DNA from: a virus
IMG/VR virus record: IMGVR_UViG_3300032030_000143
Length of the DNA: 44,759 bases
Strand: one strand, 5' to 3'
The notes beneath the pieces were generated by a model, which made no database searches, had not been told where the DNA came from, and worked only from the letters and a program-made list of their open reading frames with translations. Every line of letters starts with the position of its first letter. Position 1 is the stretch's first letter. Below are positions 27,776-30,240 of this stretch, piece after piece. The position numbers and the translations under genes are program-made.

Positions 27776-28759
27776 GGGGTGTATAATAATACACCCCTTT
27801 GAATAATGCCCGGGCAAATCGGCCCGGAGACGCCAGCGTAGGGCCGAACTTCCATTATATCATATTTTAGGAAAATTGTCAAGAGAAATTTTGCACAAAG
27901 ATCGGTTTACATAATTTCCCGAAACTGTGCACTTTGCTACGCTAAATCGCTAAAGTTTTTCCAACTTTTTCCAACCGCAGCGTTACGATCGAGGCCCGGC
28001 CGGTGAGCCTTGACAAAACCCCATATGCGGCTCGATTTTAAACAAAAGTGGGCTAGTATATGGCCCGATCGGTAAAAAAACTCCATATAAGCATTAAAAC
28101 TAGGCAAAAGTGAGCTTTTGCCTAGTTTTTTACTATTTTTCATCGTTTTTACACTAGTTTTACCGCATTTTTACTAGTTTTTTCGCATTTTTTGCGAAAA
28201 AAGCCGATCGGATACTTGATTTTTTAAAAAAAATTTGATATAATACCAAAAAAAACTATTTTTTTTAATGCCGCAATGTCGCCAAGAGGCAAAAATAATT
28301 GAAAAATAAGAAAAAATATGATATAATTTAAAAAAAAGACATTTTTTTTTGTGCCGCAAGGCGTTTCCAAGAGGTAAAGATAGTGCGGTTAATGAGATAA
28401 GCCGGCCGGTTTATTGAAAAATTAAAAAAAATATGATATAATATAAGTATATTAAGAAGCTAAAATTTTAATCTTTATTGCCTCGCAAAAAATTTTATGA
28501 TAAAAGTTTCATAGTTCTACTTTTTTCTTTAGTGCGGTTTACAAGACTACTACTGTTGTGAAGTCCTCGCAGTAAAAGAGAAAAAATTTTGCCCGATCGG
28601 TTCAGCAAGGCATAAGAGAATATAGTTGAAAAATTAAAAAAAATATTATATAATATATATGTAAATAAATGATAAAAGAAAAATATGAAAGGTAGGTTCC
28701 GTCCCTCCGGGCCCCTTTATCGCTTCGCGATAAAGAGTCCCTAAACGTTCGGAGAAATA

Positions 28760-29155
28760 ATGATGAATTATAATTTTAATGATGTTGAAAAGTATTTGCG
28801 TGATGGCGGTAAGCCGGAAGATATGATGAATGCATTCGCTGATTTGATGAATAAGTCTCTTGCAACTATTCGGCGAGAGGATAAGCTCAAGGAAGCTAAT
28901 ATCAATCTTGTGAAGGCATGGAATGCGTATATGGCAGAATATTTTACTGCTCATGATCTTCCTAAGGGTTATACTCTTGAAGACTGGAAGATGAATGAAT
29001 ATGAGATGGATGCTGTGATGAAGCGTCTTATTGAGATTCTTCCTGTTCTTGCACAGTATGGTGATTTTGTAAAAACCACTACTAAGAAAATTGAAAAATC
29101 TGTAAATAACTCACGAGATGTTATTTCTGATTTTTTCAATAAGTTTGACATTTGA
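28760..29155 (+). CDS. hypothetical protein (131 aa), first gene after the non-coding junction
   Basis: ORF track; class II promoter at 28625-28665; GGAG RBS. Confidence 0.65.
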   Translation: MMNYNFNDVEKYLRDGGKPEDMMNAFADLMNKSLATIRREDKLKEANINLVKAWNAYMAEYFTAHDLPKGYTLEDWKMNEYEMDAVMKRLIEILPVLAQYGDFVKTTTKKIEKSVNNSRDVISDFFNKFDI

Positions 29156-29519
29156 ACCTTGAAATTTGACAAATTTACTTTCCTTTCTTAAAAAACGGTG
29201 AGAAACTCGTAGTTCTACTTTTTCCATCGGTAGGGATTACTAAGGATTTATGTAGCTACGAGTTTCGTTGAAACCAGAAGAAAAGAGAAAGTAATAAAAA
29301 GAGAATTGCGGAGACGGTGAAAAATAGGGCGTCCCAACCAATACGGGCGAAGCCAGGCCTCTCTCTCACAGTAACGACCAATTATACCCCATAATTTTAT
29401 AAAATAAATCTATTCTATTAAATCAACCCATTATTCCGCAATTCTCCTTATTTAAATAATAACAAGGTCAACAGCCTTTTTATTATATATCGCTCCTAAA
29501 ACTATAAATTACACGAAGA

Positions 29520-29757
29520 TAGAGTTTTCAAATCATTTTTTGGAAACTCTATTTTTCATTTCATTTTTCAAAACCTCTATTTCATTTCATTTTTTCATTT
29601 CATTTTCCAAAACGGCTTCCCCTTCTTACTCAAAACCCCTCGCCCCAATAACGCCACTACTCCATTTTTACAATTATTGTTTTTATATTATATTATATAT
29701 ATTATATATACTATTATTACTATTATATAATATATAATATAATATAATATTATTTTT
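29520..29757. repeat. low-complexity AT-rich tract (CATTTCATTTT repeats; TATAT/ATTAT microsatellite-like run)
   Basis: Direct inspection of the sequence. Confidence 0.6.
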
Positions 29758-30240
29758 CTCTGGAAAAAATTACCAACTTTTTGACGTTTCGAGGCGCCGT
29801 TCTATATTTTCCATTTGAAAATCGGGAACCCCTACTACACCTTTTCCGGCCCAAAACTCGGTAAAATTTACCAACTTTTTGACGTTTCCTATCAACCATA
29901 TTAAAGTTCGGAAACTCGGTAAAATTTACCAACTTTTTGACGCCAAATAGTCATATTAAATTTTAACATTTTATTTAAAACTGTAAAATATGAGGTACAA
30001 CCCGTTCTTAAACTCGGTAATTTTTACCGACTTTCCGATCCTAAACTCGGTAAAATTTACCAACTTTTTGACGCCAACAAACGGTAAATTTTACCGAGTT
30101 TCCGTCCTTTTTTCTTTGTATTTATAGCCACCCGGGCAAAAACTCGGTAAAAATTACCATCTTTTTGACGCGAACTGGCGGTAAATTTTACCGACTTTCC
30201 GATCTCTTTCTCGGTAAAATTTACCGCCTTTTTGACGTTT
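29758..30240. repeat. iteron cluster: at least 8 direct and inverted copies of about 30 bp AAACTCGGTAAAATTTACCAACTTTTTGACG
   Basis: The core TCGGTAAAATTTACCGA is itself near-palindromic; spacing is irregular; no coding capacity. Confidence 0.6.

What the first reader, a model, noticed from the sequence alone, without database searches (positions are those of the whole stretch)
27800..30240. 2.4-kb non-coding junction with iterons, palindromes and low-complexity tracts: candidate replication origin or genome terminus
There are no credible ORFs between 27800 and 30240 apart from one gene at 28760-29155. It contains CCGATCGG three times and CTAGTTTT-type repeats around 28130-28200. It has a 15-bp perfect inverted repeat (AAAACTAGGCAAAAG/CTTTTGCCTAGTTTT at 28098-28133). 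It has two copies of (A)AACTCGTAGTTCTACTTTTT (28465-28500, 29205-29230). It has CATTTCATTTT repeats and an (AT)n-like tract (29540-29757). It ends with an array of at least 8 near-palindromic 30-bp iterons (29758-30240). It also separates the GC-moderate + strand early block from the AT-rich bidirectional late block.
Basis: partly seen in the sequence, partly recalled or inferred. Interest (0 to 1): 0.6.

Follow-up and report, generated by a model that had tools for sequence, protein, structure and literature searches.

The report
Candidate phage replication origin and control region
This conserved non-coding stretch of a ~240-kb uncultivated rumen phage most likely holds its replication origin (repeated protein-binding sites beside an easily melted A+T tract, next to the gene for their binding protein) and a cluster of strong promoters and small RNAs; it is a new example of a familiar design, not a new kind of element.

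Summary

The region has two parts.

- **Right part (29683-30241).** A 75-bp tract of 97% A+T directly abuts nine ~33-bp iterons, eight with a full CGGTAA-WWW-TTACCG core and one degenerate. These end at the stop codon of a small minus-strand winged-helix gene (30240-30668). That gene's only family matches are the N-terminal DNA-binding domains of phage replication initiators and DnaD-like loaders. In one divergent lineage the predicted recognition helix and the outermost base pair of every palindrome have both changed. The operon/array/A+T-tract module is kept in relatives whose winged-helix protein is only 35-57% identical. This is the anatomy of an iteron-type origin (confidence about 0.57).
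- **Left part (27760-29556).** This is transcriptional. It holds a shared terminator, a perfect sigma-70 promoter for a ~73-nt minus-strand RNA (95.5% identical between lineages whose neighbouring genes are 62-66% identical), phased T-tracts, four tandem strong promoters, one 131-aa helical protein of unknown function, a structured 3' UTR and a terminator.

A genome terminus is not supported: contigs of 10.7-55 kb run straight through the region, and the window has no terminal repeat and no recognisable terminase. GC skew is uninformative. Replication function was not tested.

The parts
27760..27787 (+). Promoter-like site (TTGGAA-16-TATAAT) overlapping the end of the last left-block gene and the terminator loop. 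Candidate start of a ~335-nt plus-strand non-coding RNA that would end at 28129.
   Evidence: 10 of 12 consensus positions. In L031 the upstream gene is replaced, yet sequence identity resumes about 5 nt upstream of this -35 element. Its function is inferred.
27774..27799 (.). Bidirectional intrinsic-terminator hairpin (AAGGGGTGTATAATAATACACCCCTT). It closes the left gene block and the minus-strand small RNA.
   Evidence: The stem is identical in all lineages aligned, and only the last base varies (T/A).
27775..27847 (-). Candidate ~73-nt small RNA with two GC-rich hairpins plus the terminator. It contains the last GCCCGGGC motif (27808-27815).
   Evidence: Its fold is -35.3 kcal/mol, z = -3.9. 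The 110 bp comprising terminator, RNA and promoter are 95.5% identical to L045, while the neighbouring genes are 62-66% identical. A 1-nt insertion in L025 rules out coding. There is no Rfam match. Expression was not tested.
27854..27882 (-). Perfect sigma-70 consensus promoter (TTGACA-17-TATAAT with an upstream TG) that would drive the small RNA.
   Evidence: 12 of 12 consensus positions. Both hexamers are intact in L017, L025, L031 and L045.
27886..27955 (.). Highly conserved block containing the inverted repeat TGCACA-N28-TGTGCA and tandem CGCTAAAT/CGCTAAAG octamers (27940-27955). L045 has about five octamer copies.
   Evidence: 91.4% identical to L045; alignment; L045 sequence. Its function is unknown; it lies upstream of the small-RNA promoter.
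28096..28129 (+). 15-bp perfect hairpin followed by a T-run; a likely plus-strand intrinsic terminator.
   Evidence: There is a compensatory G-C to A-T change in L025, L031 and L032, and a G.U intermediate in L017 that pairs only in plus-strand RNA. In L045 a different hairpin plus T-run occupies the same place.
28116..28193 (.). Eight T-tracts phased at 10-12 bp (the 'CTAGTTTT' repeats). This is predicted intrinsically bent DNA just upstream of promoter P1.
   Evidence: The copy number varies between relatives: a 32-bp deletion in L031/L032 and more copies in L045.
28216..28654 (+). Four tandem strong sigma-70-type promoters: P1 28216-28244, P2 28299-28327, P3 28414-28442 and P4 28626-28654. 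P1 and P2 are each followed by an A8-N3/4-T8/9 element. CCGATCGG or GCCGGCCGG motifs lie upstream of P1, P3 and P4.
   Evidence: (D3, D6, D7). Three of the four are kept in the L045/L081 lineage.
28760..29155 (+). Gene for a 131-aa protein of unknown function. It contains no in-frame TAG codon and is predicted to form a long helical hairpin.
   Evidence: There is no consistent Pfam or PHROG match. The family has 54 clusters at 50% identity, nearly all of 104-166 aa; a few weak matches are single stretches of much larger proteins. The AlphaFold2 model has pLDDT 83.7 and no structural neighbour.
29162..29176 (.). 15-bp palindrome AAATTTG-A-CAAATTT within an invariant 25-mer just after the stop codon. 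Candidate protein-binding site.
   Evidence: Invariant in all lineages aligned, including L045 and L081. It is unique in the window. Its function is unknown.
29202..29266 (+). Conserved long stem-loop in the 3' UTR.
   Evidence: RNAalifold finds 23 pairs, 3 of them with compensatory changes, plus U.G pairs that form only in plus-strand RNA.
29515..29556 (+). Terminator-like hairpin plus T-run that ends the 131-aa transcription unit about 130 bp before the A+T tract.
   Evidence: L045 has a hairpin of unrelated sequence plus a T-run at the same position.
29554..29606 (.). Three copies of TTTCATTTCATTTT (within TTTTTCATTTCATTTTTCAAAAC). Candidate accessory-factor site flanking the origin.
   Evidence: The core is kept in L045 and L034.
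29683..29757 (.). A+T tract of 75 bp at 97% A+T. Candidate DNA unwinding element.
   Evidence: Position and composition are kept while length and sequence drift: about 120-130 bp in L045 and L034, with indels even among close relatives.
29758..30241 (.). Iteron array: one degenerate and eight full ~33-bp units. Each unit has a 15-bp palindrome CGGTAA-WWW-TTACC(G/A) plus a directional spacer (CTTTTTGACG or CTTTCCGATC type). Start-to-start spacings are 98, 58, 98, 33, 34, 63, 34 and 33 bp.
   Evidence: The same spacing classes recur in L025 and L034. Arrays of 5-10 exact copies occur in nine related metagenome loci.
30240..30668 (-). Gene for a 142-aa winged-helix protein with three in-frame TAG codons. 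It probably starts at a GTG that overlaps the upstream gene's stop codon. Proposed iteron-binding, initiator-like protein.
   Evidence: Gene model. AlphaFold2 winged-helix model. PHROG matches to the N-terminal domains of DnaD-like loader and replication-initiation families in 6 homologues, E = 4e-6 to 2e-3. Recognition helix and palindrome change together in L086.
30661..30855 (-). Gene for a 64-aa protein of unknown function, in the same operon.
   Evidence: Synteny is kept in 8 of the 12 metagenome loci, at 52-97% identity. No family match.
30874..31059 (-). Gene for a ribbon-helix-helix protein, first gene of the operon. An inverted repeat GACATACC-GAT-GGTATGTC (31128-31146) lies upstream and is the likely site of autoregulation.
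   Evidence: phrog_876 transcriptional repressor at 5e-7, and DUF6290 below its cut-off. Related inverted repeats sit in the same place in L034, L035 and L045.

Best explanation
**What it is.** The interval is a conserved control region of a ~240-kb rumen jumbo phage that reads TAG as a sense codon in its right-hand genes.

**Proposed origin (29683-30241).** This part is most likely the phage's iteron-type replication origin.
- Dimers of the small winged-helix protein encoded immediately next to it (30240-30668, minus strand) bind the nine phased sites. This step is supported by co-variation but not demonstrated.
- The resulting nucleoprotein complex melts the adjoining 97% A+T tract, where the replisome is loaded. 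This step is inferred by analogy with lambda O/ori-lambda, iteron plasmids and SaPI origins.
- The protein is only an initiator-type N-terminal DNA-binding domain plus a short beta tail. Helicase recruitment must therefore come from a partner that has not been identified.
- Its three in-frame TAG codons imply that it can be made only once TAG is being decoded as sense. This is also inferred.

**Transcription-control region (27760-29556).**
- A bidirectional terminator closes the left gene block.
- A perfect sigma-70 promoter makes a ~73-nt minus-strand RNA.
- A possible ~335-nt plus-strand partner RNA ends at the 28096-28129 terminator.
- Phased T-tracts bend the DNA upstream of four tandem strong promoters.
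- Those promoters drive a single 131-aa gene and a structured 3' UTR, and the unit stops at a terminator about 130 bp short of the A+T tract.

Whether this heavy rightward transcription helps to activate the origin, as in lambda, T7 or T4, or simply over-expresses the 131-aa protein is open.
For: **Anatomy**
- 8 full and 1 degenerate palindrome-cored repeats occur only here (8 against 0.15 expected), at 33-34-bp phasing.
- They abut the most extreme A+T tract in the window.
- They end at the stop codon of the winged-helix gene.

**Comparison with relatives**
- The module RHH / 64-aa / winged-helix / array / A+T tract is kept in relatives whose winged-helix protein is 35-57% identical (L034, L045, L084, L086, L088, L091-L094), while the spacer DNA diverges.
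- The 131-aa gene is found alongside in six of the metagenome loci and in L045.
- The spacing classes 33-36, 58-63 and ~98 bp recur.
- The A+T tract keeps its place and composition but not its sequence or length.

**Which protein binds**
- The model is a winged helix.
- Six homologues independently have as their best matches the N-terminal domains of phrog_186 (DnaD-like loader), phrog_270 (replication initiation protein) or phrog_345 (O-like initiator), with E down to 3.9e-6.
- In L086 the helix GGSDKSWR(N/E)AR becomes AGTRKTWTKAR, and all 8 sites change from C-GGTAA..TTACC-G to G-GGTAA..TTACC-C.

**Outside analogues**
- The same palindrome core in ~33-bp phase lies inside a weakly O-like gene that is followed by a DnaB_C helicase gene (L041).
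- It lies directly after small HTH_36 or winged-helix genes (L043, L036/L046).
- It abuts pure A+T tracts (L039/L047, L085).

**Transcription part**.
Against: - No replication assay, read-depth profile or read-end data could be examined.
- GC skew stays positive on both sides. It dips only over 29000-31500, which largely coincides with a C-rich stretch and the minus-strand genes.
- No DnaA box with 1 mismatch or fewer was found in 27700-30400.
- The protein has no initiator C-terminal domain, no Pfam match above cut-off, and only weak profile similarity to HTH_36 proteins (hhalign probability 6%). No Foldseek match is significant.
- No helicase, primase or loader gene was recognised nearby.
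- The array sits between converging transcription units, which would not favour melting.
- The same palindrome core also occurs as triplets next to a sigma-54-type activator gene in Selenomonas and Mitsuokella chromosomes. The motif alone is therefore not diagnostic of origins.
- The protein/site co-variation is a single evolutionary event.
Confidence: 0.57

Rival explanations
1. **Operator or silencing array, not an origin.** The winged-helix protein would be a transcription factor. The nine sites would act as a binding sink, roadblock or insulator at the boundary between the standard-code left block and the TAG-recoded right block. For example, they could stop read-through from the converging units or time right-block expression.
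For: - The protein is only a small DNA-binding domain with no initiator C-terminal domain.
- It lies in an operon headed by a repressor-like RHH gene.
- Palindromic sites are typical operators.
- The same core serves as probable activator sites in Selenomonadaceae chromosomes and lies near cI-like repressor genes in L040, L042 and L085.
- The locus is exactly at the boundary between the two promoter classes and the two codon usages.
Against: - No promoter for any neighbouring gene lies in or next to the array, because both flanking genes end there.
- Nine to eleven phased sites plus a conserved, composition-only A+T tract are unnecessary for an operator and typical of an origin.
- All family matches of the protein are to replication initiators or loaders, and none is to a repressor.
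Confidence: 0.17
2. **Centromere-like partition or maintenance site.** The array would be bound by the winged-helix and/or RHH protein to segregate or position phage genomes in a carrier or pseudolysogenic state.
For: - Arrays of phased direct and inverted repeats next to small RHH or winged-helix genes are the hallmark of plasmid centromeres.
- TubR appears among the weak fold matches (rank 24).
- A PcfJ-like plasmid-type gene is present in the window.
Against: - No ParA, ParM or TubZ-type motor gene was recognised among the roughly 40 window proteins scanned. In the conserved module the array's only neighbours are small proteins.
- Centromeres do not usually carry a conserved pure A+T tract.
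- The protein's family matches are to replication initiators.
Confidence: 0.08
3. **Packaging signal or physical genome end (pac/cos or edge of a terminal repeat).** The repeats would be terminase small-subunit binding sites. The tandem strong promoters would be the first-entering early promoters, as at the left end of T7.
For: - Tandem strong host-type promoters near repeat arrays recall the T7 left end.
- Small terminase subunits have N-terminal winged-helix or HTH domains and bind repeated sites.
- The left block consists of about 30 tiny promoter/terminator units, like the early host-takeover modules that sit near phage termini.
Against: - Contigs of 10.7-55 kb from independent samples run through the region without a break. 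On the 239.6- and 241.3-kb contigs the module has several kb of flank on both sides in the stretches fetched.
- The window has no terminal direct repeat.
- No large terminase or structural gene lies nearby.
- The protein matches initiator families, not terminase families.
- Assemblies of terminally redundant genomes can still read through their ends, so this is not excluded.
Confidence: 0.07
4. **Non-functional low-complexity junk or an assembly artefact** at a recombination junction between two genome modules.
For: - The composition steps from about 0.40 to about 0.30 GC here.
- The gene just upstream is replaced in L031, so the locus is a mosaic boundary.
Against: - The region is collinear at 86-100% identity in many independent samples. 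Its architecture persists in lineages whose proteins are only 35-57% identical.
- Parts of it are more conserved than the flanking genes.
- There are compensatory changes in three hairpins.
- Motif counts are far above shuffled expectation.
Confidence: 0.02

Closest known systems
Lambda-type origin (ori-lambda iterons bound by the N-terminal winged-helix domain of protein O, beside an A+T-rich region)
   Same: - Several phased repeats, each with internal dyad symmetry, lie next to an A+T-rich unwinding tract.
- The cognate binding protein is encoded at the same locus, and its best family matches include 'replication initiation O-like' (phrog_345) and DnaD-like N-terminal domains.
- An unrelated phage contig (L041) carries the same palindrome core inside a weakly O-like gene that is followed by a DnaB-type helicase gene.
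   Different: - The repeats lie downstream of the gene, not inside it.
- There are nine 33-bp units rather than four 19-bp units.
- The protein is 119-146 aa and lacks the O C-terminal domain that recruits P/DnaB.
- No P-like or helicase gene is adjacent.
- The gene contains in-frame TAG codons.
Iteron-controlled plasmid and prophage-plasmid origins (for example P1 oriR/incA, F oriS/incC, R6K, pPS10)
   Same: - Arrays of direct repeats are bound by a winged-helix Rep protein, with an adjacent A+T-rich region.
- Repeat arrays can lie downstream of the rep gene (as in incA and incC).
- Spacing is an integral number of helical turns.
   Different: - No DnaA boxes were found.
- The protein has a single small winged-helix domain, whereas plasmid Rep proteins have two.
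- The element is a ~240-kb lytic-type phage genome, not a plasmid.
- Copy-number control by handcuffing is untested.
SaPI/PICI replication origins (iterons flanking an A+T-rich tract immediately 3' of the initiator gene)
   Same: The origin lies directly downstream of the gene for its specific binding protein, and repeats are combined with an A+T-rich melting region of about 80 bp.
   Different: - The SaPI Rep is a helicase-initiator fusion and its iterons are 6-8 bp.
- Here the protein has no helicase domain.
- Here the repeats lie on one side of the A+T tract only.
Transcription-activated or transcription-primed phage origins (T7 primary origin with tandem promoters 1.1A/1.1B upstream of an A+T-rich region; T4 oriF/oriG; transcriptional activation of ori-lambda)
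   Same: Tandem strong promoters fire toward an A+T-rich tract.
   Different: - The promoters lie 1.0-1.5 kb upstream of the A+T tract.
- They are separated from it by a gene and a conserved terminator at 29515-29556.
- T7 and T4 origins lack iteron arrays.
Sense/antisense RNA control pairs near origins (ColE1 RNA I/RNA II; lambda oop RNA)
   Same: A short (~73 nt), strongly promoted and highly conserved RNA ends at a terminator. It may overlap the 5' end of a longer opposite-strand RNA, close to an origin-like locus.
   Different: - Neither RNA has been shown to exist.
- The pair lies 1.9 kb from the A+T tract.
- There is no Rfam match.
- There is almost no sequence variation with which to test pairing.

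Membership tests
Iteron-type replication origin | Three or more directly repeated binding sites spaced at whole helical turns | tested here: met
   There are 8 full and 1 degenerate unit, with period 33-34 bp within clusters. Relatives carry 5-10 exact copies.
Iteron-type replication origin | Adjacent A+T-rich DNA unwinding element | tested here: met
   The tract is 75 bp at 97% A+T and lies 4 bp from the first unit. It is present, with a different sequence and length, in L034, L045, L084, L088, L091 and L094. In L086 it is interrupted by a few G/C bases.
Iteron-type replication origin | Cognate initiator encoded at the locus and binding the repeats | tested here: inconclusive
   Gene adjacency and synteny are met. 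Helix and site change together in L086. Family matches are to initiator or loader N-terminal domains at E = 4e-6 to 2e-3, but Pfam matches are below cut-off. Binding itself cannot be tested here.
Iteron-type replication origin | Host DnaA boxes (common in plasmid origins, not required in phage origins) | tested here: not met
   No TTATCCACA with 1 mismatch or fewer was found in 27700-30400.
Iteron-type replication origin | Replication actually initiates here | not testable with these tools
   This needs read-depth profiles, 2D gels or an origin-cloning assay. GC skew in the 44.8-kb window is dominated by gene orientation.
Phage replication initiators of the O / DnaD-like / HTH_36 type | N-terminal winged-helix DNA-binding domain of the family | tested here: inconclusive
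   The AlphaFold2 model is a winged helix (pLDDT 64.5). PHROG matches are in register with the N-terminal ~100 profile positions. Pfam HTH_36 gives only E = 0.012-0.044, and hhalign gives P = 0.006 with 6% probability.
Phage replication initiators of the O / DnaD-like / HTH_36 type | C-terminal domain that recruits the helicase or its loader | tested here: not met
   The proteins are 116-146 aa. Matches cover only profile positions ~13-104 of 297-383. The C-terminal ~40 residues are a small beta unit, which is absent in L034 and L086.
Physical genome terminus (direct terminal repeat, cos or pac) | Terminal repeat, or contig and read ends, at the site; terminase genes nearby | tested here: not met
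   The window has no end repeat. Contigs of 10.7-55 kb span the site. No terminase match was found.
CRISPR array | Identical repeats of 28-37 bp separated by unique spacers of similar length | tested here: not met
   Units adjoin with no unique spacers (33-bp start-to-start spacing for ~31-bp units). The larger gaps of 58-98 bp are conserved between lineages.
Sigma-70-type promoters (the four tandem sites and the minus-strand site) | -35 and -10 hexamers at 17-bp spacing, conserved in relatives | tested here: met
   They score 10-12 of 12 matches, with TG upstream of the -10 at four of the five sites. The 29-mer class is found 8 times against 0 expected. The sites are conserved in L025 and L031, and the minus-strand site, P1, P3 and P4 are also conserved in L045 and/or L081. 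Activity was not tested.

The most novel reading that the evidence does not exclude
Replication timing in this phage may be gated by its genetic-code switch. The origin-binding protein and the RHH regulator of its operon carry conserved in-frame TAG codons, so the origin complex could form only after TAG starts to be decoded as sense. The ultra-conserved sense/antisense RNA pair and the four-promoter unit at the code boundary would be part of the same early-to-recoded switch. On this reading the locus is a combined replication and code-switch control centre, not simply an origin.
Probability: 0.15. Interest if true: 0.75.

Novelty: new member of a known kind. Interest (0 to 1): 0.45.

Why it matters
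Replication origins of jumbo phages, and of stop-codon-recoded phages in particular, are almost entirely unmapped.

This locus offers a concrete and testable candidate. It pairs a defined 0.6-kb DNA element with a 142-aa protein, and a natural specificity swap (C..G to G..C sites alongside a changed recognition helix) could be tested directly in vitro.

If it is confirmed:
- It would give a handle for building replicons or engineering tools for uncultivated rumen phages.
- It would show that a minimal protein, with only an N-terminal initiator domain, can organise a large-phage origin.
- It would place a TAG-containing replication gene downstream of the code switch.

The flanking elements are also ready-made parts for studying how such phages programme transcription. 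They include a 95%-conserved small RNA, four tandem consensus promoters, and about 30 copies of a GCCCGGGC promoter cassette in the left block.

If it is not an origin, it remains an ordinary though well-conserved regulatory region.

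Tried and rejected
- **Known RNA families.** Rfam gave only the four tRNAs elsewhere in the window at gathering thresholds. At E up to 5 over 27600-30400 it gave only chance-level miRNA and snoRNA matches.
- **tRNA or suppressor tRNA in the region.** None was found.
- **Hidden coding under alternative codes.** TAG-sense, TGA-sense and TAA-sense ORF scans added nothing credible inside the interval. 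Frame-breaking indels in relatives argue against coding.
- **Similar DNA in reference phages.** No match in INPHARED. A 16-mer iteron search in IMG/VR gave only single chance hits. A protein-based IMG/VR search with the 131-aa protein found nothing.
- **Terminal repeats or circularity of the window.** None.
- **Identity of the 131-aa protein.** There is no consistent Pfam or PHROG family. A confident helical-hairpin model has no PDB neighbour.
- **Winged-helix protein against PDB sequences.** Only spurious matches to designed TIM barrels.
- **Foldseek on the winged-helix model.** It gave generic winged-helix domains, none significant.
- **hmmsearch/phmmer of the winged-helix protein** against ORFs beside other phages' palindrome arrays: not significant.
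- **DnaA boxes.** None.
- **Literature.** No paper contains the palindrome in a relevant context.
- **CRISPR array, MITE and simple tandem-repeat artefact.** All were considered and rejected on repeat and spacer geometry and on conservation.
- **Plus-strand promoters inside 27883-28095** (TTGACA at 28011; TTGCAC/CATAAT at about 27892). Rejected because the hexamers are not conserved or the spacing is wrong.
- **A sigma-70 promoter at the invariant 29157-29181 block.** Rejected because the -10 position is not conserved.

Full report
**Source and setting**

The window comes from an uncultivated phage-like element. The same 131-aa protein is encoded on JGI, ENA and Logan metagenome contigs that are 93.6-100% identical in DNA. 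More distant relatives sit on contigs of 55 kb, 239,565 bp, 241,302 bp and 249,705 bp. The genome is therefore jumbo-sized, about 240-250 kb. Several source records look like rumen samples; that reading is my inference from the record names.

The window has two regimes.
- **Left block (1-27775).** All credible genes lie on the plus strand and use the standard code. There are about 30 short units, each preceded by a conserved cassette: terminator hairpin, CGCCCGGGCG, ATTGTTAAATAAATAAC, then TTGAC-17-TATAAT. GCCCGGGC occurs 32 times against 0.11 expected, all between 870 and 27815.
- **Right block (from 30240).** The DNA is A+T-richer, about 0.30 GC against 0.40. ORFs stay open only if TAG is read as a sense codon. 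It uses a second promoter class, TTGAAAATTTTAAAAAAATATTATATAAT.

The finding lies exactly between the two blocks.

**Check of the observation**

- CCGATCGG occurs 3 times against 0.16 expected.
- The 15-bp perfect inverted repeat is at 28096-28110 and 28115-28129, followed by a T-run.
- The 'CTAGTTTT' repeats have period 20.
- TTTCATTTCATTTT occurs 3 times.
- A 75-bp tract is 97% A+T.
- GGTAAAWTTTACC occurs 8 times against 0.15 expected, and nowhere else in 44.8 kb. There is also a degenerate ninth copy at 29762.

The claimed second copy of AACTCGTAGTTCTACTTTTT is only a 76% match, about 40 nt from the stated position. The interval is non-coding apart from 28760-29155. No alternative code opens a credible ORF, and relatives carry 11-bp, 32-bp and other frame-breaking indels.

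**Comparative framework**

Three tiers of relatives were assembled.
- **Near-identical:** L015-L024, at 93.6-100% identity.
- **Moderately diverged:** L025 at 92.6%, and L031/L032 at 86-87%.
- **Deep lineages:** proteins only 35-60% identical. These are L034, L045 (the same contig as L094), L081, L084, L086, L088 and L091-L093.

The order of elements across the whole 2.4 kb is kept in the L045 lineage. Against L045, per-segment identities are 95.5% for the terminator/small-RNA/promoter block, 91% for the next 70 bp and 72-75% for the promoter zone. They are 62% for the 131-aa gene, 68% for the array and 66% for the winged-helix gene. The non-coding DNA is thus as constrained as the genes, or more so.

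**Right part: an origin-like module**

*Anatomy.* Each full repeat is a ~33-bp unit. It consists of a 15-bp palindrome, CGGTAA-WWW-TTACC(G/A), followed by a directional spacer of the CTTTTTGACG or CTTTCCGATC type. Start-to-start spacings are 98, 58, 98, 33, 34, 63, 34 and 33 bp. The same spacing classes recur in L025 and in the distant L034. The array begins 4 bp after the A+T tract and ends at the stop codon of a minus-strand gene.

*The gene.* It was first read as 110 aa. It probably starts at a GTG (30668) that overlaps the stop of the upstream 64-aa gene, because the 32-residue N-terminal extension is conserved in P0010, L034 and L045.

*Fold and family.* The AlphaFold2 model (pLDDT 64.5) is a winged helix with a small C-terminal beta unit, and Foldseek returns only winged-helix DNA-binding domains, none significant. 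Pfam finds nothing above cut-off. In PHROGs, however, six homologues independently have as their best matches the N-terminal ~100 positions of three families:
- phrog_186, 'DnaD-like helicase loader';
- phrog_270, 'replication initiation protein';
- phrog_345, 'replication initiation O-like'.

E-values run from 2e-3 for the window protein to 3.9e-6 for the most divergent homologue.

*Who binds the repeats.* The best evidence is a natural experiment. In every lineage whose predicted recognition helix reads GGSDKSWR(N/E)AR, the palindromes are flanked C...G, or C...A in some units (5-10 sites per locus). In L086 the helix reads AGTRKTWTKAR, and all eight palindromes are flanked G...C. This is a single evolutionary event. 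Even so, a symmetric change across every site alongside a changed helix is what a cognate dimeric binder predicts.

*The RHH protein.* It heads the operon and probably regulates it. Inverted repeats of the ATGTC/GACAT type sit upstream of the operon in four lineages.

*The A+T tract.* It behaves like an unwinding element. Its position and composition are conserved, but its sequence and length are not. It is 75 bp here and about 120-130 bp in L045 and L034, with indels even among close relatives.

**External analogues**

Searching IMG/VR for two palindromes 18-26 bp apart returned L045 and twelve unrelated loci.
- In L041 three copies lie inside a gene with weak Phage_rep_O/HTH_36 matches, followed by a DnaB_C helicase gene. 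This is the lambda arrangement.
- In L043 four copies directly follow a 103-aa HTH_36 gene.
- In L036/L046 they directly follow a 177-aa winged-helix gene.
- In L039/L047 three copies abut a 50-bp pure A+T tract, with HTH_36 proteins 1.4-2.2 kb away.

These associations were noticed after the fact and carry modest weight.

As a caution, the same core occurs as triplets between a sigma-54-type activator gene and ptsH/ptsI in Selenomonas and Mitsuokella chromosomes. It also lies near cI-like repressor genes in L040, L042 and L085. The motif alone therefore does not mean 'origin'.

**Left part: transcription control**

In order along the plus strand:
1. A bidirectional terminator at 27774-27799 ends the left block.
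2. A perfect sigma-70 promoter on the minus strand (27882 to 27854, 12 of 12 plus TG) points at that terminator. It would yield a ~73-nt RNA with two GC-rich hairpins (z = -3.9). This is the most conserved element of the locus, and a 1-nt insertion in L025 rules out coding.
3. A weaker plus-strand promoter at 27760-27787 could start a ~335-nt RNA overlapping the small RNA in antisense. That RNA would end at the 28096-28129 hairpin. The hairpin shows a G-C to A-T compensatory change and a G.U intermediate compatible only with plus-strand RNA. Only one further compensatory pair supports a fold for this RNA, so it remains a hypothesis.
4. Eight T-tracts at 10-12-bp phase (28116-28193) predict bent DNA just upstream of P1. 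Their number varies between relatives.
5. Four tandem promoters (28216, 28299, 28414, 28626; 10-11 of 12) precede the 131-aa gene. Three are kept in the L045/L081 lineage.
6. The 131-aa protein belongs to a family of small proteins, with 54 clusters at 50% identity. It folds confidently as a long helical hairpin (pLDDT 83.7) and has no structural or family neighbour. Its function is unknown.
7. Downstream lie an invariant 25-mer holding the palindrome AAATTTGACAAATTT and a 65-nt stem-loop with three compensatory pairs and plus-strand-specific U.G pairs. A variable spacer follows, then a terminator at 29515-29556. In L045 that terminator's place is taken by a hairpin of unrelated sequence plus a T-run.
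8. The TTTCATTTCATTTT motifs follow immediately and are conserved in all three deep lineages.

**Origin or terminus?**

*For an origin.* The anatomy, the initiator-like neighbour, the protein/site co-variation, the deep conservation of the architecture and the lambda-like analogue all point that way.

*Against, or missing.*
- There are no functional data.
- GC skew stays positive on both sides and dips only over the C-rich stretch and the minus-strand genes.
- There are no DnaA boxes.
- The protein lacks an initiator C-terminal domain, and no helicase or loader gene is nearby.
- The array sits between converging transcription units.
- The three in-frame TAG codons mean the protein cannot be an immediate-early product unless TAG is already being decoded.

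*For a terminus.* There is nothing beyond a loose resemblance to the T7 left end. Contigs from independent samples cross the region. The window has no end repeat, and no terminase was found. Read-through in assemblies does not strictly exclude a terminally redundant end.

**Verdict**

I put 0.57 on an iteron-type origin organised by the adjacent winged-helix protein. Binding of the array by that protein, taken alone, I put at about 0.8. The rivals are 0.17 for a purely regulatory binding array, 0.08 for a partition site, 0.07 for a packaging site or terminus, and 0.02 for no function.

By kind, this is a new member of a known class, with some unusual features: a minimal initiator, a TAG-recoded initiator operon, and its position at a code and promoter-class boundary. 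It is worth a bench test but is not a categorical surprise.

Noticed in passing
window 870-27815 (32 sites; for example 13060-13190, 21197-21327): GCCCGGGC occurs 32 times against 0.11 expected, always on the plus-strand side of the left block. It is part of a ~110-bp cassette: terminator hairpin, CGCCCGGGCG, ATTGTTAAATAAATAAC, then TTGAC-17-TATAAT. The cassette precedes nearly every small gene and some tRNAs. This is an unusually regular promoter/regulator-site system, and the factor that binds the palindrome is unknown.
   Followed up: partly
window 30240-44759: Right-block genes need TAG read as a sense codon, for example 33107-35554, 40739-41671, 41711-43324 and the RHH/winged-helix operon. 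In the left block TAG ends only 1 of 25 sampled ORFs. No suppressor tRNA lies in the window; its four tRNAs are Leu-TAA, Lys-TTT, Glu-TTC and Asn-GTT.
   Followed up: partly
window 33107-35554 (+): An 815-aa protein has major-vault-protein domains (MVP_shoulder at 1.7e-20, Vault_3 at 1.3e-8). This is an unusual thing to find in a phage genome, and it is conserved in relatives L016 and L025.
   Followed up: no
window 32011-32400 (-): A 129-aa ORF with three in-frame TAG codons matches the C-terminal half of formate/nitrite transporters (3.3e-11). It may be a truncated or split auxiliary gene.
   Followed up: no
window 31167-31195, 35601-35629, 38398-38426 (also 43321, 19518): Three identical copies of the 29-nt promoter TTGAAAATTTTAAAAAAATATTATATAAT define a second promoter class. 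It is used in the right block and is related to the four tandem promoters in the finding.
   Followed up: partly
window 18772-19482 and 25286-25990; 15052-16176; 17262-17729: The left block holds two paralogous DnaQ-like exonuclease proteins (phrog_20187 and phrog_192), a PcfJ-like protein and a nucleoside 2-deoxyribosyltransferase. The block is therefore not made up only of anonymous small genes.
   Followed up: no
window 43919-43960: A 42-bp perfect palindrome lies immediately after the gene at 43509-43916.
   Followed up: no
L052, L054, L055, L057, L059, L065-L067, L070, L072, L074, L075 (Selenomonas and Mitsuokella genomes): Triplets of TTGGTAA-N3-TTACCAA spaced ~31 bp apart sit between a sigma-54-type activator gene and ptsH/ptsI in rumen Selenomonadaceae. 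This could be a host clue for the phage, or it could be convergent use of the same palindrome.
   Followed up: partly
L073 (Peptococcaceae MAG contig, 27% GC): There are 19 dispersed copies of GGTAAAATTTACC in 8 kb. This dense scatter of the same palindrome occurs in an unrelated element.
   Followed up: no
L064 5772-5970 (Succinivibrionaceae contig): At least eight tandem 37-bp repeats each contain TTTTGGTAAAAATTACC or a degenerate form. This is another iteron-like array built on the same core.
   Followed up: no
window 28251-28272 and 28335-28352: Promoters P1 and P2 are each followed, around the predicted transcription start, by an A8-N3/4-T8/9 element and then GCCGCAA. This is conserved in L045 and L081, and its purpose is unknown.
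   Followed up: no
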